Source of the DNA: Candidatus Omnitrophota bacterium | GTDB lineage: Bacteria; Omnitrophota; Gorgyraeia; Tantalellales; Tantalellaceae | Assembly: GCA_015231405.1 (NCBI GenBank) | Contig: JADGBR010000001.1 | Location: forward strand, 91,964 to 155,963 | Direction: 5' to 3' | Length of the DNA: 64,000 bases | Shown: piece by piece, positions 431-49,389 of the stretch | Layout of the letters: each line of letters starts with the position of its first letter | How positions within the stretch are numbered: the stretch's first letter is position 1 | Notes under the pieces: model-generated | Database searches by the model: none | What the model was told of the DNA's origin: nothing | What the model saw: the letters and a program-made list of their open reading frames with translations, nothing else | Made by a program: the position numbers and the translations under genes

Positions 431-432
431 AG

Positions 433-540
433 GTGATGGGTTAAGAGTGATGGGTGATGGGCTAAGGTTTTCGCAATACATAAACTCCTCACCCATCACT
501 AATAGTTGACTGAATTGTTATGTCACCCATCACCAATGAG
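433..540. repeat. heptamer-periodic array GTGATGG x3-5, then two reverse-complement CCATCAC copies 20-50 nt downstream
   Basis: 433-467 reads gtgatgg gttaaga gtgatgg gtgatgg gctaagg. CCATCAC occurs at 493-499 and 527-533. Intergenic between acd and etfB. Confidence 0.7.
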
Positions 541-13517: not shown

Positions 13518-13594
13518 GACTATGGACCATGGACAATGGACTATGGACTTTTTTTGGTCAAATACCTTTTAAGGTCCATGGTCTATGGTCCAAT
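13518..13594. repeat. heptamer array GACNATG x4 (gactatg gaccatg gacaatg gactatg), 28-nt T-rich spacer, reverse-complement array gtccatg gtctatg gtccaat
   Basis: Read directly from the sequence. Lies between hisB and hisH. Predicted stem about 21 bp. Confidence 0.75.
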
Positions 13595-14953: not shown

Positions 14954-15683
14954 TGTAAAGGACGGGAGGGTCGTTAAGGGTGTGAATTTTCTCTCTCTAC
15001 GGGATGCCGGCGATCCTGTCGAGAACGCTAAAATATATAACGACGAAGGCGCCGATGAACTTGTTTTCCTGGATATTACGGCAAGTTACGAAGCCAGAAA
15101 GACCATGGTAGATGTCGTAAGGAACGTAGCCAGGCAGGTGTTCATGCCCTTTACGGTCGGGGGGGGGATCTCTTCGATCGAGGATATAAGGGATATGCTC
15201 AACGCCGGGTGCGATAAGGTATCCATAAACACTTCGGCCGTCAAAAGGCCTCAGCTGGTGAAAGAAGCGAGCGATAAATTCGGTACACAATGCATAGTTG
15301 TGGCTATAGACGCCAAGAGCGGAACGAAAGGCGGCTGGGAAGTCTATATAAAAGGAGGACGCGAGTCGACCGGCATCGACGCGGTTGAGTGGGCTAAGAA
15401 AGCTGCGTCTTTGGGCGCAGGCGAGATACTTTTGACGAGCATGGACCGTGACGGAACAAAGAACGGTTTTGACATAGCGCTCACACGGGCGGTTTCTAGT
15501 GCCGTGAACATACCCGTTATCGCTTCAGGCGGATGCGGCGGACTCGACGATTTTGTAGATGTGTTCCGTCAAGCCGGAGCCGACGCCGCCCTGGCCGCGT
15601 CGATATTCCATTTTCGCGAATTTTCGATCAAAGAGGTGAAGGAAAAGCTGCGTAGTTCCGGGATAATTGTACGTAATCAGTAG
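14922..15683 (+). CDS. hisF: imidazole glycerol phosphate synthase, cyclase subunit
   Basis: [17 protein letters not shown]; the GTG start overlaps the hisA end. Classic HisF barrel. Confidence 0.9.
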
Positions 15684-15739
15684 GGGCGGCCCTTGTGGCC
15701 GCCCTAAAAAAGTCCATGGTCCATGGTCCATGGTCTAAA
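15684..15739. repeat. GC hairpin GGGCGGCC-cttgt-GGCCGCCC, A7, then perfect tandem GTCCATG x3
   Basis: Between hisF and hisI. Same CATGGAC/GTCCATG unit as the hisB-hisH array. Confidence 0.7.
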
Positions 15740-17641: not shown

Positions 17642-17650
17642 TATGTATAG

Positions 17651-17758
17651 GCATAGCGCAGAGCGCATGGCGCATAGCTTGATGATTATAGTGTATAGAG
17701 CAACCGGACAGGGTTAATGAAGACATTTACGCCATGCGCTTTGCTCTATGCGCTATGC
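17651..17758. repeat. heptamer array GCANNGC x4 (gcatagc gcagagc gcatggc gcatagc), 52-nt loop, reverse-complement array gccatgc gctttgc tctatgc gctatgc
   Basis: Between trpE and trpG. Outer heptamers are perfectly complementary, inner ones have 1-2 mismatches, giving a roughly 28-bp imperfect stem. Confidence 0.75.
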
Positions 17759-20213: not shown

Positions 20214-20335
20214 TTGTTGTCAGTGATCAGTTGCCGGTTTCCGGTTCAGGAAGATGGATCATTTGTAATTGGCTGGGGGAAAATAGCCAATATGAACAGA
20301 CAACGGGCAACGGACAACAGACAATAGGCAACTGA
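20214..20335. repeat. GTT-phased heptamers (tttgttg tcagtga tcagttg ccggttt ccggttc) and AAC-phased heptamers x6 (gaacaga caacggg caacgga caacaga caatagg caactga)
   Basis: Between trpC and trpF. Both arms show 7-nt phasing. The right arm ends 3 nt before the trpF ATG. Confidence 0.65.
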
Positions 20336-20338
20336 CAT

Positions 20339-24731: not shown

Positions 24732-25819
24732 AAAATTCCCTGAGGATAGCGCGGTTCTTTGGCATAGATATAGAGTTGCACCTGACATTTTTAGTTCTTC
24801 TGGTCTTTTTTTTATCCGTTATGGGGATAAAGGGGATATTGCTGGTAGCCGGCGTCTTTATTTGCGTAACGACGCATGAACTTTCGCATAGCCTGGCGGC
24901 GCGATATTTCGGTATGAGGGTGAGGAAAATAACCCTTTTACCCATCGGGGGAATAGCCTCGGTATCAGGATATCCCCGGACGCCCAGGGCGGAGATGCTG
25001 ATAAGTTTCGCCGGGCCTCTTTCAAATATCCTCATAATGGCGGTTTTCTATTTCCCTTTATATTTTTACCTGGGCGCGGACAAGTTCTTTTCCACGCTGA
25101 ATATAATTAGGGGCAGTTCGGAAATAGCCGGGATCAAAGATCTTATCATGTATGTGTACTGGCTGAACATGGTCATCGCTGTATTCAACCTTATGCCGGC
25201 GTTCCCGATGGACGGGGGAAGGATACTCAGAGCCTGGCTCTCTTACCGTTGCGGCCGTGAAAAAGCCACTAAAATAGCGGTAAGGACAGGCCATATATTC
25301 GCCCTTTGTTTCGCTTATCTGGGCATTGTGTACGGCCATATATTTCTTCTCATAATCGCCGTTTTTGTGTATACTTCGGCTACGGGGGAAGAAGAGAGCG
25401 TGAGCGTTGAGGAATATCTCGTCAGGTTCAGGGTGGGCGACGTGATATCCCGTAAGGCAGTGTGCCTATCGCCGGAAATGACTCTATCGGATCTTTACGG
25501 ACAGGTCCTTTCCAGCGATCAGGAGATCTATCCAGTATTGTCCGAAGGCGGGTTCAAGGGGATATTTATGAAGGACGATATTTTTAAGTCATACCGCGGG
25601 GATAAGGCGGCTATAAAGGTACGGGACATTATGACCTGTGATCCCATGACGGTAAAGGCTGAAGACCGTTTGGATACGGCGCGAAAATTGATGATCGAGA
25701 CGAAGAGCGGTGCGCTTACGGTGCTTAACGAAGGGTCTGTCACCGGGATAGTCACAATGAACGACATAATGAGGGCTTATCTAATGGCGAAAGAGCTGGG
25801 GGAGGGGAAAGGCTTATGA
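24728..25819 (+). CDS. M50 site-2 protease family membrane metalloprotease with CBS pair
   Basis: HELSHSLAARYFGM (HExxH), NLMPAFPMDGGRIL (LDG motif), multiple TM helices, two C-terminal CBS domains. Confidence 0.85.
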   Translation: MKNSLRIARFFGIDIELHLTFLVLLVFFLSVMGIKGILLVAGVFICVTTHELSHSLAARYFGMRVRKITLLPIGGIASVSGYPRTPRAEMLISFAGPLSNILIMAVFYFPLYFYLGADKFFSTLNIIRGSSEIAGIKDLIMYVYWLNMVIAVFNLMPAFPMDGGRILRAWLSYRCGREKATKIAVRTGHIFALCFAYLGIVYGHIFLLIIAVFVYTSATGEEESVSVEEYLVRFRVGDVISRKAVCLSPEMTLSDLYGQVLSSDQEIYPVLSEGGFKGIFMKDDIFKSYRGDKAAIKVRDIMTCDPMTVKAEDRLDTARKLMIETKSGALTVLNEGSVTGIVTMNDIMRAYLMAKELGEGKGL

Positions 25820-26460
25820 AAAGAGTGCTTATTGCTCCAAGCATTCTTTCCGCGGATTTCGGCCGATTGGCCGAAGAGATAGGGATGATAGAACGCGCCG
25901 GAGCGGATTGGGTCCATATAGACGTAATGGACGGGATGTTCGTCCCGAACATAACCATAGGGCCCGTGGTCGTCAGGTCCATCAGGAAAACAACTAAACT
26001 TGTTTTTGACGTTCATCTCATGATAGAAGACCCGGGGCGATATGTGGGTGATTTCGCCGACGCCGGATCAGATCTGATAACCTTCCACATAGAGGCATGC
26101 AAAGATCCTGTTTCGATCATCGGGAAGATACGTGATAAAAAGAAGAGGGCCGGTATCTCCATAAAACCAGGTACGGATATTTCCCGGTTAAAAGGACTTC
26201 TGGACAAGGTTGACATGGTGCTTATAATGACAGTAGAGCCTGGATTCGCCGGTCAGGCTTTTATGGAAGATATGATGGACAAAATAAGCACAGTGAGGAA
26301 AAATTATTCCGGGCTGATACAGGTCGACGGAGGTATAAACGCCGAAACGGCAAAGACCGCGATCTCTGCCGGCGCTGATGTTCTTGTGGCGGGATCGTAT
26401 GTTTTCGGAACAAAAGATTATGGGGCGGCTATTCGTAAAGTTAGGGGTGATTTTACGTAA
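25816..26460 (+). CDS. rpe: ribulose-phosphate 3-epimerase
   Basis: APSILSADFGRL...HIDVMDG...HLM. Confidence 0.9.
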   Translation: MKRVLIAPSILSADFGRLAEEIGMIERAGADWVHIDVMDGMFVPNITIGPVVVRSIRKTTKLVFDVHLMIEDPGRYVGDFADAGSDLITFHIEACKDPVSIIGKIRDKKKRAGISIKPGTDISRLKGLLDKVDMVLIMTVEPGFAGQAFMEDMMDKISTVRKNYSGLIQVDGGINAETAKTAISAGADVLVAGSYVFGTKDYGAAIRKVRGDFT

Positions 26461-26509
26461 GACGTAAGACGTAGGACGTGGGACGTCCTACGTCTTACGT
26501 CCTATGTTA
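26454..26509. repeat. eight tandem heptamers NACGTNN forming a perfect 19-bp inverted repeat with 3-nt centre (26461-26501)
   Basis: tacgtaa gacgtaa gacgtag gacgtgg gacgtcc tacgtct tacgtcc tatgtta. GACGTAAGACGTAGGACGT-ggg-ACGTCCTACGTCTTACGTC starts right at the rpe stop. Confidence 0.8.
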
Positions 26510-26546
26510 TTCAATCATTAGCGGTCTAACAAAACGGAGGGAAACA

Positions 26547-27971
26547 ATGGCGCGGATCAAGTTTGGCACTGACGGATGGAGGGCGATAATAGCCGAGGAT
26601 TTTACTTTCGAAAATGTCGGAATAGCGGCTCAGGCAATAGCGGATTTCATTTTATCGAGGGAGGAACCTCTCTATAAAAAGAGAACAGCGGTAGTGGGAT
26701 ACGACACGAGGTTCCTGTCCGATAAATTCGCCGAGACCGTTTCTTCCGTATTGGCGGCCAACGGCATAAAGGTCATACTTTCGCATGAGCCGTGTCCGAC
26801 CCCTGCCGTAAGTTTCTTCATAAAGGACAGGGAGCTAACGGGTGGAGTCATGATAACAGCCAGCCATAATCCCCCGCAGTATAACGGGGTGAAATATAAG
26901 GGCTATTTCGGCGGTTCCGCGGGTAGCGACATCATCGACGATATTGAAACCCGGCTGTACAAGACCCCTGTCAAACAAATTCCTTTCGATGACGCGGTTA
27001 AAAATAAAATGGTACTGGTCCAGGACATTATAAAAGACCAGCTGACCTTCATCAAGAAATACGCCGATATGAAACTTTTGAATAAGAAAAAGCTCAGAGT
27101 GCTTGTCGATTCGATGTTCGGTACCGGGGCCACATATCTTGGTGATCTCTTATCGAAAACAAAGATAGAAGTGGATTACATCCATACTGACATGAACCCC
27201 GGGTTCCTTGGGAACGCTCCGGAGCCCAACGGTAAACATCTTGTTGAGCTTATGGAAAAGGTCAAGAGAGGGAAGTACGACCTCGGGGTCGCGACCGACG
27301 GTGACGCGGACAGGGTCGGGATAGTGGATAACAAAGGGAATATTCTTACGGGCCATAAGGTCATGTCGCTCCTCCTTTTGCACCTTCTGGAGAACAGGAA
27401 GATGCGTGGAGGGGTCATCCAGACGATATGCGGGACAGGTCTCATAACGAAGATGTGCAAAGAGTACGGTGTAAAGGCTTATGAGACTCCAGTCGGGTTC
27501 AAGTATATTTGTGAGCTTATGGTAAAAGAGGATATTCTTCTCGGCGGCGAGGAAACAGGGGGCATAGGTTTTAAGAATTATATCCCCGAAAGGGACGGTT
27601 TCCTTTCGGCCCTTCTGATAATGGAACTTATAATAAGCATGAAAAAGCCACTTTCCGAGATCCTGAAATGGGTCGACAGGAAATACGGCAGCTATGTGTA
27701 CGAAAGGGAGGATATCCTCTTCCCGGAGGAAAAAAGGAAGGCTATCATGGACGGGCTCAAGGATAAGCCCATAAAGAGCGTTTTAGCGAGGCCCGTGGTC
27801 GAGATAAACGGCGCCGACGGGTATAAATTCATCTGCGATGACGGCAGCTGGCTTCTTATAAGGCTTTCCGGAACTGAGCCGAAATTGAGGATATACAGCG
27901 AGACTTCATCGTCAAAAAAGTCTCTCCAGTATATTAAGGCCGGAAAGGATTACGCGTTCTCTCTATTTTAA
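26547..27971 (+). CDS. phosphoglucomutase/phosphomannomutase family protein
   Basis: MARIKFGTDGWRA, active-site ITASHNP, GEETGG. RBS ACGGAGGGA. The 6-frame ORF start at 26478 is inside the palindrome and is rejected. Confidence 0.85.
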   Translation: MARIKFGTDGWRAIIAEDFTFENVGIAAQAIADFILSREEPLYKKRTAVVGYDTRFLSDKFAETVSSVLAANGIKVILSHEPCPTPAVSFFIKDRELTGGVMITASHNPPQYNGVKYKGYFGGSAGSDIIDDIETRLYKTPVKQIPFDDAVKNKMVLVQDIIKDQLTFIKKYADMKLLNKKKLRVLVDSMFGTGATYLGDLLSKTKIEVDYIHTDMNPGFLGNAPEPNGKHLVELMEKVKRGKYDLGVATDGDADRVGIVDNKGNILTGHKVMSLLLLHLLENRKMRGGVIQTICGTGLITKMCKEYGVKAYETPVGFKYICELMVKEDILLGGEETGGIGFKNYIPERDGFLSALLIMELIISMKKPLSEILKWVDRKYGSYVYEREDILFPEEKRKAIMDGLKDKPIKSVLARPVVEINGADGYKFICDDGSWLLIRLSGTEPKLRIYSETSSSKKSLQYIKAGKDYAFSLF

Positions 27972-33469: not shown

Positions 33470-33657
33470 AGTGAAGGAATTATTGCGTTCATTCATGGTA
33501 TTTATGGCATTCGTAAAGCTCAGCATGATCAAGCTGCAATTATCCGATTGCGAGAATAAAGTACGGGCCAGATAAGCAGATAATTTGACGGGTTCGCAAA
33601 TCCCAGTCAATTACCTCCTGGACCTGAATGGTGTGTCGCCTTTCACGGTCAGGACAA

Positions 33658-33690
33658 ACGGAGATGGCGTAAGCCGTCTCCGTTTTTTTT
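33658..33690 (+). terminator. rho-independent terminator (11-bp stem, GUAA loop, 7-8 U)
   Basis: ACGGAGATGGC-gtaa-GCCGTCTCCGT followed by TTTTTTT. Ends the transcript that starts at the 33011 promoter. ORF 33585-33803 spans it and is therefore rejected. Confidence 0.8.
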
Positions 33691-34008
33691 ACCCACTGAT
33701 GGATCTAGTCCAATTTCCCCTCTCCACTATCCACCAATTCTCCGAGCACTACCCATTATCAATTTTCAACCCAACCCGGTATCTCATCCACACACCTCAT
33801 TGATAGTGTAACAATTTATGCTGACTTTCATCATGCGCGCGGCGAGGTGTGGACTTCCTCTTCAAGCCTTCCCCTGGGAATTTAACAACGACTTTAACAT
33901 GCCGTTTTTAGACCTTGCGCATTCACCCCTCCTCCGCCTTCGGATTCGGAGGATGAGCCGCAAGCAAGGAGGTTGTCATAAAAACGTCATGTAAAAGGCT
34001 AAAATTTC

Positions 34009-34024
34009 CAAAGGGGCCCCTTTG
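34009..34024. repeat. perfect 16-bp palindrome CAAAGGGGCCCCTTTG
   Basis: Self-complementary with no loop, so it is a DNA-level dyad, a typical dimeric-regulator site. About 350 bp upstream of the XRE gene. Confidence 0.6.
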
Positions 34025-34104
34025 CTTAAAGAGGATATCCACACCTTGACCCTTCCCGTAATGAAAAATCCCAGGAATCTCCAGGTCTTTGCGAAAGGGG
34101 TGAG

Positions 34105-34258
34105 GGCGTGAAGGAGATGGGGTTCTTCGTAAGGCACTTTGCTGTCCCGATATCCAAAGTAGCCTTGTGCGTGGACCTTGCAAATGTTACAGCCGAGGAC
34201 ACAAACCCAACAAGAAGTTTGCAAAGTGCCTGTAGAAGGTTCCCATCTCCTTCACGCC
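34105..34258. repeat. 154-bp element bounded by imperfect 38-bp inverted repeats (MITE-like or long hairpin)
   Basis: Arm 34105-34142 vs arm 34221-34258. Perfect matches of 17 bp (GGCGTGAAGGAGATGGG / CCCATCTCCTTCACGCC) and 10 bp (GGCACTTTGC / GCAAAGTGCC) flank an 11-bp mismatched patch. 78-nt centre. Confidence 0.55.
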
Positions 34259-34338
34259 ATCGTCACGAGAAGCATGAAACTTTTGAAAGTCAGCAAGGTT
34301 CTTGACAGTATGGATCCCGATGGATCTCATTGATACTA

Positions 34339-34367
34339 TTGCGTAGCGGAATTGACGGTGATATACT
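34339..34367 (+). promoter_or_regulatory. putative promoter TTGCGT-17-TATACT placing the TSS at the XRE ATG (leaderless mRNA)
   Basis: The -10 TATACT ends 6 nt before ATG 34374. No Shine-Dalgarno precedes the ATG. Confidence 0.35.
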
Positions 34368-34373
34368 GACTCC

Positions 34374-37927: not shown

Positions 37928-37937
37928 TAGCTTGATG

Positions 37938-37989
37938 GTTGTTAGTTGTTAGGTGACAGGGCTTGGTATCAACACTAACAGCTATAACC
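37938..37989. repeat. GTTGTTA x2, 24-nt spacer, degenerate reverse-complement TAACANC x3
   Basis: ggttgttagttgttagg ... caacactaacagctataacc. Between gpsA and tRNA-Pro. Confidence 0.5.
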
Positions 37990-38030
37990 CAGAACCTAAA
38001 CCCTAACGGTTCTATTATTTGAAATAGCGT

Positions 38031-38108
38031 CGGGATGTAGCGCAGTTTGGCTAGCGCACTAGTCTGGGGGACTAGGGGTCGCCGGTTCAAATCCGGCCAT
38101 CCCGACCA
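38031..38108 (+). tRNA. tRNA-Pro (anticodon GGG), CCA encoded
   Basis: Acceptor CGGGATG/CATCCCG, D-arm GCGCAGTTTGGCTAGCGC, anticodon stem CTAGT/ACTAG with loop CTGGGGG, T-arm GCCGG-TTCAAAT-CCGGC, discriminator A, then CCA. Confidence 0.85.
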
Positions 38109-38124
38109 TTTTGTTCATCAAGGG

Positions 38125-38250
38125 AACAGAATACAGAATGGAGAATCCAGGATCCAGAATTTGGGATATTTTTAGGAGAGAGTGACCCTGATATAATCCC
38201 GAAAATTATTTTGGATTTTAGCTTCTGGCTTCAGTATTCCAGATTTAAGT
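38125..38250. repeat. NCCAGAA-family heptamers x6 (aacagaa tacagaa tggagaa tccagga tccagaa tttggga) and opposite-orientation TTCTGNN-phased heptamers x6 at 38209-38250
   Basis: Between tRNA-Pro and hom. Right array: ttttgga ttttagc ttctggc ttcagta ttccaga tttaagt. Confidence 0.7.
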
Positions 38251-39581: not shown

Positions 39582-39603
39582 TCGAGAGGATAGAGAGAAG
39601 GGA

Positions 39604-39686
39604 TCCAGAAGCCTGAATATAGGATCCAGAACACGTAATAATTGAAAGGGCATGAACCGATCACTCCTGGATTCTGGCTTCTGAAT
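39604..39686. repeat. TCCAGAA heptamers at 39604 and 39625 (21 nt apart) plus inverted ttctggc ttctgaa at 39673-39686
   Basis: Between hom and thrC. Same unit family as the 38.1-kb, 47.6-kb and 61.6-kb loci. Confidence 0.65.
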
Positions 39687-47571: not shown

Positions 47572-47627
47572 AAATAAGAAACGAAATAAAGAATCAAGCA
47601 TCCAGAATTAAGGATCCAGAATATGGA
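47572..47627. repeat. eight A-phased heptamers (aaataag aaacgaa ataaaga atcaagc atccaga attaagg atccaga atatgga)
   Basis: Between valS and the pseudouridine synthase. The last unit contains that gene's ATG. ATCCAGA x2. Confidence 0.65.
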
Positions 47628-48376: not shown

Positions 48377-49273
48377 ATGGATGTAAATATGACCAGGGTC
48401 GGCAAGGTGGTGCAGTTCGCGATAAAGGAAGATGTATGGACAAGAGATATTACCTCGGAATCGGTATTGGATCCCGCCCAAGAGATCACCGCGGCGATCA
48501 CGGCCAAACAGCCCGGGATAGTTTGCGGGATACAGGTCGTTGAAAAAGCTTTTAATCTAGTGGATCCTAATACACGTTTTAAATACATGGTCAAGGATGG
48601 CGACCGCGTCGAAGCCGGAAGGGAAATAGCTTTTATAGAAGGCAACGTTCTCTCTGTGATGAGGACGGAAAGGGTCGCTTTGAATTTCCTCTCCTATCTC
48701 AGCGGTGTATCCACAAGAACGCGGGAATTTGTCGACAAAGTACGCGGGACGAAAGCAAAGATATATGACACGCGCAAAACTATGCCGCTCCACAGATACA
48801 TGCAGAAATATGCCGTCCGCGTAGGCGGGGGAGAGAACCACCGCTGGGGGCTATGGGATATGGTCCTTATCAAGGATAACCACCTAAGGGCCTACGGCAT
48901 CAGGAAAAAGACCGTCAATAACGAAAGCGTGATAAGGGGTATAATAAAGGAAGCGAGGGAGAACGTACAACGGAATATTAAGATCGAAATAGAGGTTGAA
49001 AGCCTGAACGAAGCCAGATACGCGCTTCACGAGGCTCCGGACATCATTATGCTGGATAATATGCAGCCCGAAGAGGTAAGGAAAGCCGTGAAGGTACGTT
49101 CAGAAATGGGGCTGGAGGACAGGGTAAAACTTGAGGTTTCGGGCGGCATAACCGTCGCCAATGTCAGAGAATACGCCGAGACCGGGATAGATATGATATC
49201 TTCAGGGTCATTGACGGCGTCTATATCTTCAATGGATTACGGCATGGAGATCGTTATGAGGGATAACCAGTAG
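48377..49273 (+). CDS. nadC: nicotinate-nucleotide diphosphorylase (carboxylating)
   Basis: QPRTase family with a TIM-barrel C-terminus (LDNM...VSGG). Confidence 0.85.
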   Translation: MDVNMTRVGKVVQFAIKEDVWTRDITSESVLDPAQEITAAITAKQPGIVCGIQVVEKAFNLVDPNTRFKYMVKDGDRVEAGREIAFIEGNVLSVMRTERVALNFLSYLSGVSTRTREFVDKVRGTKAKIYDTRKTMPLHRYMQKYAVRVGGGENHRWGLWDMVLIKDNHLRAYGIRKKTVNNESVIRGIIKEARENVQRNIKIEIEVESLNEARYALHEAPDIIMLDNMQPEEVRKAVKVRSEMGLEDRVKLEVSGGITVANVREYAETGIDMISSGSLTASISSMDYGMEIVMRDNQ

Positions 49274-49274
49274 T

Positions 49275-49389
49275 GCCGGTTGTCCGTTGTCAGTTGCCGG
49301 TTGTAGGTTCTTTGTCTCCCCTCGGTCATAGCTTTGAATAATGATAATTGAATAAACAGGCAACGGGCAACAGGCACCCGACAACTAAC
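49275..49389. repeat. GCCGGTT-family heptamers x5 (gccggtt gtccgtt gtcagtt gccggtt gtaggtt), about 45-nt spacer, reverse-complement AACNGGC heptamers x3-5
   Basis: Between nadC and uvrB. The unit is related to the trpC-trpF array (ccggtt/caacgg). Confidence 0.75.

What the first reader, a model, noticed from the sequence alone, without database searches (positions are those of the whole stretch)
26454..26509. Perfect 19-bp/3-nt-loop palindrome built from eight ACGT-centred heptamers immediately after the rpe stop codon
GACGTAAGACGTAGGACGT-ggg-ACGTCCTACGTCTTACGTC is perfectly self-complementary and begins on the nucleotide after the rpe TAA. Each heptamer carries the palindromic core ACGT. It is therefore at once a tandem array and a hairpin (19 bp, about -35 kcal/mol range) or cruciform. 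It is followed by tatgttattc rather than a clean U tract, so it is not a textbook terminator. The downstream pgm gene has its own RBS 45 nt later. It could be a transcript 3-prime stabiliser or processing site, an intrinsic terminator with a weak U tract, or a binding array for an ACGT-recognising dimer.
Basis: seen in the sequence. Interest (0 to 1): 0.6.

Follow-up and report, generated by a model that had tools for sequence, protein, structure and literature searches.

The report
Heptamer-repeat hairpin after rpe gene
The perfect hairpin after the rpe gene is real, but it is one of about ten seven-base tandem-repeat palindromes filling gaps between genes in this 64-kb stretch of an Omnitrophota genome, a kind of repeat already known from cyanobacteria and Xanthomonas whose function is still unknown.

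Summary
A perfect 19-bp stem with a GGG loop (26461-26501) starts on the base after the rpe TAA. It extends to 26455-26507 with one mismatch. ACGT recurs every 7 nt seven times; the eighth unit is ATGT. It is far beyond chance (RNA -32.7 to -37.3 kcal/mol, z about -8).

It is not a one-off. Period-7 arrays are the dominant tandem repeat in the window (8 at one threshold, against 0-2 for other periods and in shuffles). About ten intergenic elements use different heptamers. Most are inverted pairs starting 0-10 nt after the upstream stop codon, between co-oriented genes, several inside the trp and his operons.

The rpe-pgm gene order is conserved in Omnitrophota, but this element is not. Thirteen related loci have a short or array-free spacer there, and two carry unrelated heptamer arrays.

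Best reading: a heptanucleotide simple-sequence-repeat palindrome, like cyanobacterial STRR and the Xanthomonas GGGAATC inverted pairs. It probably arose by slippage plus fold-back copying at the self-complementary ACGT core. Its transcript hairpin most plausibly acts like a REP or STRR element, as a 3'-exonuclease barrier or processing site. It is probably not an efficient terminator or an ACGT-protein binding array. New member of a known, poorly understood kind.

The parts
25816..26460 (+). rpe (ribulose-phosphate 3-epimerase) CDS. The last codon ACG and the stop TAA (26458-26460) lie inside the first heptamer.
   Evidence: C-terminus compared with relatives
26455..26510 (.). Period-7 array: ACGTAAG ACGTAAG ACGTAGG ACGTGGG ACGTCCT ACGTCTT ACGTCCT ATGTTAT. 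Seven exact ACGT cores and one degenerate core.
26461..26479 (+). 5' arm of the perfect 19-bp stem (purine-rich 3-nt spacers)
26480..26482 (+). GGG loop, which is the 3-nt spacer of the central heptamer
26483..26501 (+). 3' arm of the perfect stem (pyrimidine-rich spacers, exact complement of the 5' arm)
26502..26511 (+). Tail CTATGTTATT: weak, interrupted T tract. Bases 26503-26507 can also extend the stem.
26536..26549 (+). pgm Shine-Dalgarno GGAGG (26536-26540) and start ATG (26547-26549). Neither is sequestered by the hairpin.
432..500 (.). Sibling element A: GGTGATG-type array with an inverted arm, starting 1 nt after the stop of an acyl-CoA dehydrogenase gene and lying before the ETF genes
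13518..13592 (.). Sibling element B: ATGGACN arrays in inverted pair, between hisB and hisH
15712..15735 (.). Sibling element C: (GTCCATG)x3.4, between hisF and hisI
17644..17758 (.). Sibling element D: GCGCATA-type arrays, inverted pair with arms 17651-17678 / 17731-17758, between trpE and trpG
20217..20337 (.). Sibling element E: GTTGNCN / CAACNGN arrays, inverted pair, between trpC and trpF
37935..37985 (.). Sibling element G1: GTTGTTA-type hairpin between gpsA and tRNA-Pro
38126..38160 (.). Sibling element G2: ACAGAAT/CCAGAAT array just after tRNA-Pro and before hom
39601..39686 (.). Sibling element H: GGATCCAGAA-type inverted pair (arms 39603-39624 / 39665-39686), between hom and thrC
47590..47622 (.). 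Sibling element J: CCAGAAT-type array (scored as period 14) between valS and a pseudouridine synthase gene
49273..49385 (.). Sibling element I: GTTGTCN / CAACAGG arrays, inverted pair with arms 49273-49295 / 49355-49377, between nadC and uvrB

Best explanation
The element is a heptanucleotide simple-sequence-repeat palindrome. It belongs to a dense class (about one per 6 kb here) of intergenic 7-nt tandem arrays that usually occur as inverted pairs in this Omnitrophota genome and its relatives.

Origin (inferred): a 7-nt unit (ACGT plus a 3-nt purine spacer) expanded by slipped-strand replication right at the end of rpe, and now supplies its last codon and TAA. A nascent strand ending in the self-complementary ACGT then snapped back across one spacer (GGG, now the loop) and copied itself. 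This turned AAG-AAG-AGG into CCT-CTT-CCT and created a perfect, in-phase palindrome.

Action (inferred by analogy and context): rpe and pgm are probably co-transcribed. In that RNA the element folds into a -33 to -37 kcal/mol hairpin starting at the stop codon. It lets most transcription pass. It would act like REP or STRR hairpins, as a barrier to 3'-to-5' exonucleases and a possible RNase III substrate. That would stabilise the rpe segment and uncouple its decay from pgm. pgm translation starts independently from its own free RBS.

The effect is a by-product of a genome-wide repeat process, not a conserved rpe-specific regulator.

Shown: anatomy, significance, class membership, non-conservation, operon-internal siblings. 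Inferred: slippage and fold-back origin, RNA-level effect.
For: - **Perfect palindrome far beyond chance.**
- **Period 7 dominates tandem repeats.** The window has 8 period-7 arrays against 0-2 for periods 4-13 and 0-2 in shuffles. The closest relatives have 19 in 57 kb.
- **About ten intergenic siblings.** They use different heptamers, are mostly inverted pairs that fold into long hairpins, and their 5' arms start 0-10 nt after the upstream stop. All lie between co-oriented genes.
- **Siblings inside operons.** They lie between trpE|trpG, trpC|trpF, hisB|hisH, hisF|hisI and hom|thrC. Efficient termination there would split enzyme subunits or pathway steps, so read-through is the likely default.
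- **The genome has canonical terminators that look different.** One lies at 33656-33685 followed by T8.
- **Arms mirror each other more closely than neighbouring units match.** In this element, adjacent units within an arm differ in their spacers (AAG, AAG, AGG, GGG) but the arms are 19/19 complementary. This indicates a single inverted copying of an already diversified array. Element D shows the same mirrored order of unit variants.
- **Not conserved at the junction.** Thirteen related loci with the same rpe-pgm order lack it. L003 and L009 have unrelated heptamer arrays at the same junction.
- **ACGT-heptamer arrays are common in metagenomes.** At least 120 contigs carry them, and some are in-phase palindromes, for example L189 with 19 bp and a 3-nt loop.
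- **Literature.** Heptameric SSRs are over-represented in many bacteria, and polymerase slippage has been proposed (Mrazek 2007, as summarised in PMC4679880). Xanthomonas GGGAATC repeats form 70-75 convergent pairs, sit on average 28 nt from the 5' ORF between co-oriented genes, are transcribed, and have no known function (PMC4692102). STRR hairpins lie between the hydrogenase genes hupS and hupL, where increased transcript stability has been suggested as a role (PMC2670836).
Against: - No transcript data exist for this organism, so co-transcription, stabilisation and processing are all untested.
- Stem mismatches across 17 arm pairs show no clear excess of G:U over A:C (15 vs 9, plus 30 transversion-type). 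There is therefore no signature of selection on the RNA of the sense strand.
- The two strands fold equally well, so a DNA-level role (cruciform, replication or recombination) is not excluded.
- The tail has 5 T in the scan's 8-base window, and the consensus scan does flag the site as terminator-like. Partial termination is possible.
- The fold-back origin is a reconstruction from one sequence. Compensatory selection for pairing would give the same pattern.
- The source genome could not be retrieved. Copy number of the ACGT family and population variation are unknown.
Confidence: 0.55

Rival explanations
1. Neutral or selfish repeat with no meaningful effect. The array and its palindrome are pure by-products of slippage and template switching, tolerated only because they sit in dispensable spacer. 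They have no measurable consequence for rpe or pgm expression.
For: The element is absent from the same junction in 13 relatives, several of which have rpe and pgm almost abutting. Different arrays come and go at the same junctions in related genomes. There is no G:U over A:C bias in the stems. No function has been found for the analogous Xanthomonas and Nostoc repeats despite testing (PMC4692102).
Against: A -33 to -37 kcal/mol hairpin starting at the stop codon of a transcribed gene can hardly be inert for RNA decay or for the terminating ribosome (established knowledge of REP hairpins). Arm complementarity is high in most siblings, 77-100%. The class is dense and consistently placed right after stop codons.
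Confidence: 0.22
2. Intrinsic (Rho-independent) terminator or attenuator with a weak U tract. It would end a fraction of rpe transcripts and lower pgm expression.
For: The consensus scan lists it as the top terminator-like site in 20-34 kb: 19 pairs, 10 GC pairs, 3-nt loop, tail CTATGTTATT. It lies directly after a stop codon.
Against: The T tract is interrupted: 5 T in the scan's 8-base window, none in a run longer than two. A true terminator in the same window has T8. The stem is much longer than typical terminator stems. Sibling elements lack T tracts and sit inside the trp and his operons. There is no convincing promoter between the hairpin and pgm.
Confidence: 0.12
3. Non-autonomous mobile element (REP/BIME-like or MITE-like) whose inverted ends are heptamer arrays. 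It would be inserted after rpe by a transposase acting in trans.
For: Heptamer families recur at several loci in the window: CCAGAAT at 38126, 39601 and 47590; GTTGTCN at 20217, 37935 and 49273. In relative L082 a composite (CTGTAAA)n-(ATACGCA)n array recurs at three junctions. The element is an insertion relative to relatives.
Against: No second ACGT-type copy exists in 64 kb. No target-site duplication is visible at the flanks. Loops of same-family siblings (E, I) are unrelated. No transposase was seen among the 25 window proteins scanned, but the rest of the genome is unavailable.
Confidence: 0.07
4. DNA-level array of binding sites for a dimeric protein that recognises the palindromic ACGT core, or a cruciform-forming structural site.
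For: Seven ACGT cores lie at exact 7-bp spacing. A perfect palindrome with a 3-nt spacer is favourable for cruciform extrusion.
Against: Sibling arrays have the same architecture with unrelated, mostly non-palindromic cores, so ACGT itself is not the common denominator. The site is not conserved. ACGT is neither enriched nor avoided in the window, observed/expected 0.88. The location is inside a co-directional gene string, not a promoter.
Confidence: 0.03
5. Assembly artefact of a metagenome-assembled genome.
For: The source is a metagenome-assembled genome, and palindromes can arise from chimeric reads.
Against: About ten similar elements lie in the same window, and many more occur in independently assembled related genomes from ENA, JGI and NCBI. 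The flanking reading frames are intact.
Confidence: 0.01

Closest known systems
Heptameric intergenic simple sequence repeats: long SSRs of Mrazek et al. 2007, and the GGGAATC / GGGGAYT repeats of Xanthomonas and Nostoc (Rehm et al. 2015, PMC4692102)
   Same: 7-nt unit. Several imperfect tandem copies. Strong bias to intergenic DNA, close to the 3' end of the upstream ORF, and mostly between co-oriented genes. Frequent convergent pairs that form inverted repeats or stem-loops. Length and sequence turnover between related genomes. Function unknown.
   Different: The host phylum is Omnitrophota. One genome stretch here carries many different heptamer families rather than one dominant G-rich unit. 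There is no G-quadruplex potential. This copy is an in-phase palindrome, because its 4-nt core is self-complementary and the 3-nt spacer serves as the loop.
Cyanobacterial STRR (short tandemly repeated repetitive sequences, Mazel et al. 1990), for example the hairpin between hupS and hupL
   Same: Heptamer tandem arrays in intergenic spacers inside operons. They are able to form hairpins, and roles in transcript stability, translational coupling or termination have been proposed (PMC2670836).
   Different: The STRR consensus heptamers as I recall them (CCCCAGT, TTGGTCA, CAACAGT; own knowledge) do not match ACGTNNN. Only sibling elements E and I (CAACNGN) resemble STRR3. The host is not a cyanobacterium.
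REP/BIME elements of enterobacteria
   Same: Extragenic palindromes inside operons, just downstream of stop codons. They form stable RNA hairpins that block 3' exonucleases and stabilise upstream mRNA; REPs within about 15 nt of a stop codon can also affect the terminating ribosome (own knowledge: Newbury 1987; Liang, Rudd and Deutscher 2015). This is the best functional analogue.
   Different: REPs share one consensus per genome and are mobilised by RAYT transposases. Here each locus has its own heptamer, the arms are internally periodic, and no RAYT is known.
TAACTGA direct repeats of marine Beggiatoaceae (MacGregor 2015, PMC4679880) and the heptanucleotide elements of Geobacter metallireducens (PMC2700814)
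   Same: Abundant intergenic heptamer repeats, suspected to be post-transcriptional or global regulatory sites. Some Geobacter sites are drawn as strand-switching (palindromic) sets.
   Different: Those are single-sequence families, mostly direct repeats just upstream of start codons. The present class is multi-family, mostly inverted, and abuts stop codons.
Rho-independent terminators
   Same: A GC-containing stem-loop directly after a stop codon, followed by a T-containing tail.
   Different: The stem is 19-25 bp and the T tract is interrupted. Class members occur inside operons. The same window has a canonical hairpin followed by T8 at 33656-33693.

Membership tests
Heptanucleotide intergenic SSR (long SSR sensu Mrazek 2007; Rehm 2015) | Head-to-tail tandem copies of a 7-nt unit, at least 3-4 copies, imperfect copies allowed | tested here: met
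   Seven ACGT-phased units plus one degenerate unit. TRF reports period 7 with 4.6 and 3.1 copies for the two halves.
Heptanucleotide intergenic SSR (long SSR sensu Mrazek 2007; Rehm 2015) | Period 7 over-represented relative to other periods in the same genome | tested here: met
   Window: 8 arrays at period 7 against 0-2 at periods 4-13, and 0-2 in shuffles. Only 64 kb of the genome could be examined.
Heptanucleotide intergenic SSR (long SSR sensu Mrazek 2007; Rehm 2015) | Intergenic, nearer the upstream ORF's 3' end, mostly between co-oriented genes | tested here: met
   The element starts at the rpe stop and ends 46 nt before the pgm ATG. Most siblings start 0-10 nt after a stop codon (E and J about 20 nt). 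All flanking genes are on the + strand.
Heptanucleotide intergenic SSR (long SSR sensu Mrazek 2007; Rehm 2015) | Convergent array pairs that can form stem-loops | tested here: met
   This element is the tightest case (3-nt loop); siblings have loops of 31-59 nt.
Heptanucleotide intergenic SSR (long SSR sensu Mrazek 2007; Rehm 2015) | Copy-number change in 7-nt steps between strains (slippage) | not testable with these tools
   No same-species sequence was found. The nearest pgm is 75% identical, and the source genome is not retrievable.
Cyanobacterial STRR (Mazel 1990) | One of the STRR consensus heptamers (CCCCAGT, TTGGTCA, CAACAGT; recalled from memory) | tested here: not met
   The unit is ACGT plus 3 nt. 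Only siblings E and I (CAACNGN) resemble STRR3.
Cyanobacterial STRR (Mazel 1990) | Host is a (filamentous) cyanobacterium | tested here: not met
   The pgm is 100% identical to a protein named from a 'Candidatus Omnitrophica bacterium' metagenome-assembled genome. The nearest genomes are Omnitrophota.
REP/BIME | Extragenic imperfect palindrome of about 20-40 nt able to form a hairpin | tested here: met
REP/BIME | One conserved consensus repeated many times per genome | tested here: not met
   No second ACGT-type copy in 64 kb. Sibling elements use unrelated heptamers. The whole genome was not available.
REP/BIME | Associated RAYT (TnpA-REP) transposase | not tested
   Only 25 window proteins were scanned, and none was a transposase. 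The genome is not available.
Rho-independent terminator | Stable GC-containing stem-loop | tested here: met
   19 pairs, 10 of them GC, 3-nt loop. The stem is longer than usual.
Rho-independent terminator | Uninterrupted U-rich tract immediately 3' of the stem | tested here: inconclusive
   The tail CTATGTTATT passes the lax scan (5 T in an 8-base window) but has no run longer than two T. The canonical site at 33656-33685 has T8.
Rho-independent terminator | Located at the end of a transcription unit | not testable with these tools
   No RNA data. Sibling elements lie inside the trp and his operons, and rpe-pgm abut in relatives, which argues against it.
MITE | Terminal inverted repeats plus target-site duplication and multiple copies | tested here: not met
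   Inverted arms are present, but no flanking duplication and no second copy in the window.

The most novel reading that the evidence does not exclude
Heptamer-array palindromes may be a purpose-built 'operon punctuation' system in Omnitrophota, and perhaps in the Verrucomicrobiota, Acidobacteriota and Chloroflexota loci that also show them. On this reading, a dedicated factor that measures 7-nt register (an RNA- or ssDNA-binding protein or nuclease) generates the hairpins, or reads them at stop codons. That would set differential mRNA stability or ribosome release gene by gene. The rpe element would be the cleanest, most recently formed example.
Probability: 0.1. Interest if true: 0.7.

Novelty: new member of a known kind. 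Interest (0 to 1): 0.3.

Why it matters
On its own, this hairpin is an ordinary instance of a repeat class first described in 1990. It should not be annotated as an rpe terminator or a regulator binding site.

The wider pattern is more useful. It shows that a little-studied phylum carries heptamer-repeat palindromes at REP-like density, placed right at stop codons and even inside trp and his operons. Each genome has its own set of heptamers.

Why bacteria favour a 7-nt period, and what these arrays do, is still unanswered after 35 years.

The perfect, in-phase ACGT palindrome gives a concrete, testable model for how an array becomes a hairpin: fold-back copying at a self-complementary core. 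It also offers a clean substrate for RNA-decay and termination assays.

Tried and rejected
1. **Rfam.** Nothing at gathering thresholds except three tRNAs. With relaxed thresholds only generic hairpin (miRNA-precursor) hits appear, far below cut-off. This is not a known RNA family.
2. **Retrieving the source genome.** I tried to count ACGT-type copies and look for strain variation. Exact-protein look-ups for rpe, two edge genes and the 100%-identical pgm all returned nothing. Local BLAST of the window against all fetched loci found no same-species DNA.
3. **G:U versus A:C asymmetry in stems, as a test for RNA-level selection.** The counts were 15 vs 9, with 30 transversion-type mismatches. Not significant, so inconclusive.
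4. **ACGT as a restriction-type or specially selected word.** Observed/expected is 0.88, which is unremarkable.
5. **MITE reading.** No target-site duplication, and the loops of same-family siblings are unrelated.
6. **Internal promoter-like site in rpe.** TGGACA-16-TATAAT at 26201-26228 falls on the conserved rpe peptide motif (MVLIMTVEPGF), and the TATAAT is not kept in relatives. I treated it as chance.
7. **Literature search for Omnitrophota plus heptamer repeats.** Nothing relevant.
8. **A paper identifier for the REP-at-stop-codon work.** The search failed, so that point rests on my own knowledge.
Full report
**1. Observation**

The window reads ...GAT TTT ACG TAA | GACGTAAGACGTAGGACGT GGG ACGTCCTACGTCTTACGTC CTATGTTATTC....

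- **Flanking genes.** The ORF 25816-26460 is ribulose-phosphate 3-epimerase (Pfam E 1.9e-73), with its TAA at 26458-26460. The next gene is a phosphoglucomutase/phosphomannomutase family protein starting at ATG 26547, behind GGAGG at 26536-26540.
- **Stem.** 26461-26479 and 26483-26501 are complementary 19/19 around a GGG loop. The stem extends to 26455-26507 with one A/C mismatch and one G:U.
- **Repeat.** ACGT recurs every 7 nt at seven positions.
- **Stability.** RNA: -32.7 kcal/mol for the core and -37.3 for the extended form, z about -8, with 0 of 200 shuffles as stable. The opposite strand gives -37.2. As DNA the core is -22.1 kcal/mol.
- **Chance.** The phased ACGT pattern has an expectation of 0.00 in shuffles.

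**2. It is one member of a class**

Tandem Repeats Finder lists many period-7 arrays in the window, with different units. A simple autocorrelation detector finds 8 arrays at period 7, against 0-2 at every other period from 4 to 13. Block-shuffled copies of the window give 0-2.

Reading and folding each site shows about ten intergenic elements:

| Element | Coordinates | Heptamer type |
|---|---|---|
| A | 432-500 | GGTGATG |
| B | 13518-13592 | ATGGACN |
| C | 15712-15735 | GTCCATG |
| D | 17644-17758 | GCGCATA |
| E | 20217-20337 | GTTGNCN / CAACNGN |
| F (the finding) | 26455-26507 | ACGTNNN |
| G1 | 37935-37985 | GTTGTTA |
| G2 | 38126-38160 | CCAGAAT |
| H | 39601-39686 | GGATCCAGAA |
| J | 47590-47622 | CCAGAAT |
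| I | 49273-49385 | GTTGTCN |

- Most are two arrays in inverted orientation around a spacer of 31-59 nt, with arms 75-100% complementary. F is the compact extreme, with a 3-nt loop.
- All lie between co-oriented + strand genes.
- In most, the 5' arm begins 0-10 nt after the upstream stop codon.

F stays in 7-nt phase through its centre. This is because its 4-nt core is self-complementary and the 3-nt spacer acts as the loop.

**3. Context of the siblings**

Pfam scans place the siblings as follows:

- B between hisB and hisH
- C between hisF and hisI
- D between trpE and trpG
- E between trpC and trpF
- H between hom and thrC
- A between an acyl-CoA dehydrogenase gene and the ETF genes
- G1 and G2 on either side of tRNA-Pro

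Efficient termination between the two anthranilate synthase subunit genes, or inside the his operon, would be counter-productive. The class is therefore most likely transcribed through.

None of the siblings is followed by a T tract. The window does contain a canonical terminator, a 13-bp stem followed by T8 at 33656-33693.

**4. Relatives**

The pgm protein is 100% identical to a protein from a 'Candidatus Omnitrophica bacterium' metagenome-assembled genome on a 491-kb contig. The next best hit is 75% identical. The genome scan gives Omnitrophota as the nearest relatives, including Ca. Omnitrophus magneticus and Ca. Tantalella remota.

The gene string trp genes - ruvX - M16 - M50 - rpe - pgm - lepA - lepB is conserved.

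At the rpe|pgm junction the picture is as follows:

- **No array.** L001, L004-L008, L010, L011, L045 and L081-L084 have a short or array-free spacer. In several of them the genes nearly abut.
- **Unrelated arrays.** L003 has GGTAYCG, GGGAATA and AAGGAAA arrays. L009 has CTTTACA-type arrays.

So the element is not conserved, but the junction has been colonised independently at least three times.

The relatives nevertheless carry many period-7 arrays elsewhere. L081, L082 and L084 together have 19 in 57 kb. Again these are inverted pairs that start at stop codons, for example L084 11426-11501 at the pgm stop and L081 468-600 after ruvX.

Across 836 kb of pgm loci from many phyla, period 7 is the most common period (52 arrays). 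Examples occur in loci labelled Verrucomicrobiota, Terriglobia and Dehalococcoidia. Some of those arrays are also in-phase palindromes, for example L189 with 19 bp and a 3-nt loop.

**5. What is known**

- **General excess of heptamers.** Heptanucleotide repeats are the most abundant long SSR class in many bacterial genomes. Polymerase slippage over a 7-nt contact has been proposed (Mrazek 2007, as summarised in PMC4679880).
- **Xanthomonas.** GGGAATC arrays are about 90% intergenic. They lie on average 28 nt from the 5' ORF and 160 nt from the downstream ORF, mostly between co-oriented genes. In 70-75 cases they occur as convergent pairs able to form stem-loops. They are transcribed and vary in length between species. 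No function has been found (PMC4692102).
- **Cyanobacteria.** STRR heptamers form hairpins between hupS and hupL. [quoted passage not shown]
- **Other cases.** Beggiatoaceae TAACTGA repeats and Geobacter heptanucleotide elements.
- **Omnitrophota.** No paper linking this phylum with heptamer repeats was found.

**6. Mechanism**

*Origin (inferred).* The arms of F are perfectly complementary. Neighbouring units within an arm, however, differ in their spacers (AAG, AAG, AGG, GGG). Element D likewise mirrors the order of its unit variants between arms. This fits a single inverted copying of an already diversified array. A nascent 3' end ...ACGT-GGG-ACGT can pair with itself over the self-complementary ACGT and be extended on its own strand. 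That yields exactly CCT-ACGT-CTT-ACGT.

The first heptamer supplies the last rpe codon and the TAA. The rpe C-terminus here (RGDFT) is 2-3 residues longer than in relatives. This fits an array that grew into, or was inserted at, the end of the gene.

*Action (inferred).* In an rpe-pgm co-transcript the hairpin would form at the stop codon after the last ribosome has passed. By analogy with REP and STRR hairpins it would block 3' exonucleases and could be cut by RNase III. Either would uncouple the decay of rpe from that of pgm. The pgm RBS stays unpaired.

Partial termination cannot be excluded, because the tail has 5 T in the scan's 8-base window.

No RNA-strand-specific selection was detectable. 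Stem mismatches were G:T 15, A:C 9 and transversion-type 30. Both strands fold equally well. A purely neutral element, or a DNA-level role, therefore remains a serious alternative.

**7. Rejected or weak readings**

- **ACGT-specific binding array.** Unlikely. Siblings share the architecture but not the core. ACGT usage is ordinary, observed/expected 0.88. The site is not conserved.
- **MITE or REP-type mobility.** Unsupported for F: no second copy and no target duplication. Some heptamer families do recur at several loci, however, and L082 has a composite array at three junctions. Dispersal by copying cannot be dismissed for the class.
- **Known RNA family.** None.
- **Assembly artefact.** Very unlikely, given independent assemblies with the same kind of element.

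**8. Verdict**

The feature is real and statistically extreme, and it was correctly described. It is a new member, in a new phylum and with a neat in-phase geometry, of the known and functionally unexplained class of intergenic heptanucleotide repeats.

- Confidence in class membership is about 0.9.
- Confidence that it acts as a read-through RNA stabiliser or processing hairpin, rather than being inert or a terminator, is about 0.4-0.5.
- Interest is modest for the single locus. It is somewhat higher for the window-wide pattern.

Noticed in passing
window 1-64000: Every gene I identified lies on the + strand: the long + strand ORFs tile the window, and all 25 proteins scanned against Pfam are + strand. 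This is an unusually complete strand bias over 64 kb. The same co-directional string is seen in relatives L081, L082 and L084.
   Followed up: partly
window 33470-34373: An approximately 900-nt stretch has no ORF of 100 aa or more. It contains a canonical terminator (33656-33685 followed by T8), possibly ending a small RNA or small gene that starts near 33470. It also holds a 41-nt, 83%-complementary inverted repeat at 34102-34142 / 34221-34261. Rfam found nothing meaningful.
   Followed up: partly
window 37935-38230: tRNA-Pro(GGG) at 38031-38108 is bracketed by heptamer elements on both sides: a GTTGTTA-type hairpin upstream and an ACAGAAT/CCAGAAT array downstream. These elements therefore also flank a tRNA gene, not only protein-coding genes.
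   Followed up: partly
window 15683-15735: A GC-rich hairpin (GGGGCGGCC-CTTGT-GGCCGCCC) followed by A6 sits directly before the (GTCCATG)n array between hisF and hisI. On the minus strand the order reads array, then T6, then hairpin. Element B also has T7 right after its 5' array (13549-13555).
   Followed up: no
window 26449-26460: The rpe C-terminus here (...RGDFT) is 2-3 residues longer than in relatives (...RG plus 1-2 residues). The final codon and the TAA belong to the first heptamer. This suggests the array replaced the original stop region.
   Followed up: partly
window 26201-26228: A sigma-70-like match, TGGACA-16-TATAAT (11/12), lies inside rpe about 230 nt upstream of the hairpin. 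It overlaps the conserved MVLIMTVEPGF codons, and the TATAAT is not kept in relatives. Probably chance.
   Followed up: partly
L087 10560-11420: An unidentified 110-kb metagenome contig carries an approximately 850-bp one-directional (CACGTCN)n array, well over 100 heptamers. ACGT-type heptamers can evidently expand to satellite size.
   Followed up: no
L082 6238-6464, 13930-14144, 18710-19103: In a 73%-identical relative, a composite (CTGTAAA)n-(ATACGCA)n array with a conserved junction recurs at three intergenic junctions. This hints that heptamer arrays can be dispersed as units, not only grown in place.
   Followed up: partly
L003 5758-5878; L080 453-569; L079 783-808: Heptamers identical or close to published families turn up in unrelated phyla. 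GGGAATA appears in Ca. Tantalella (compare Xanthomonas GGGAATC). GGGGACT/CCCCAGT and CAACAGT appear in Terriglobia (compare cyanobacterial STRR1 and STRR3, recalled from memory). Some heptamer sequences may be recurrently favoured.
   Followed up: no
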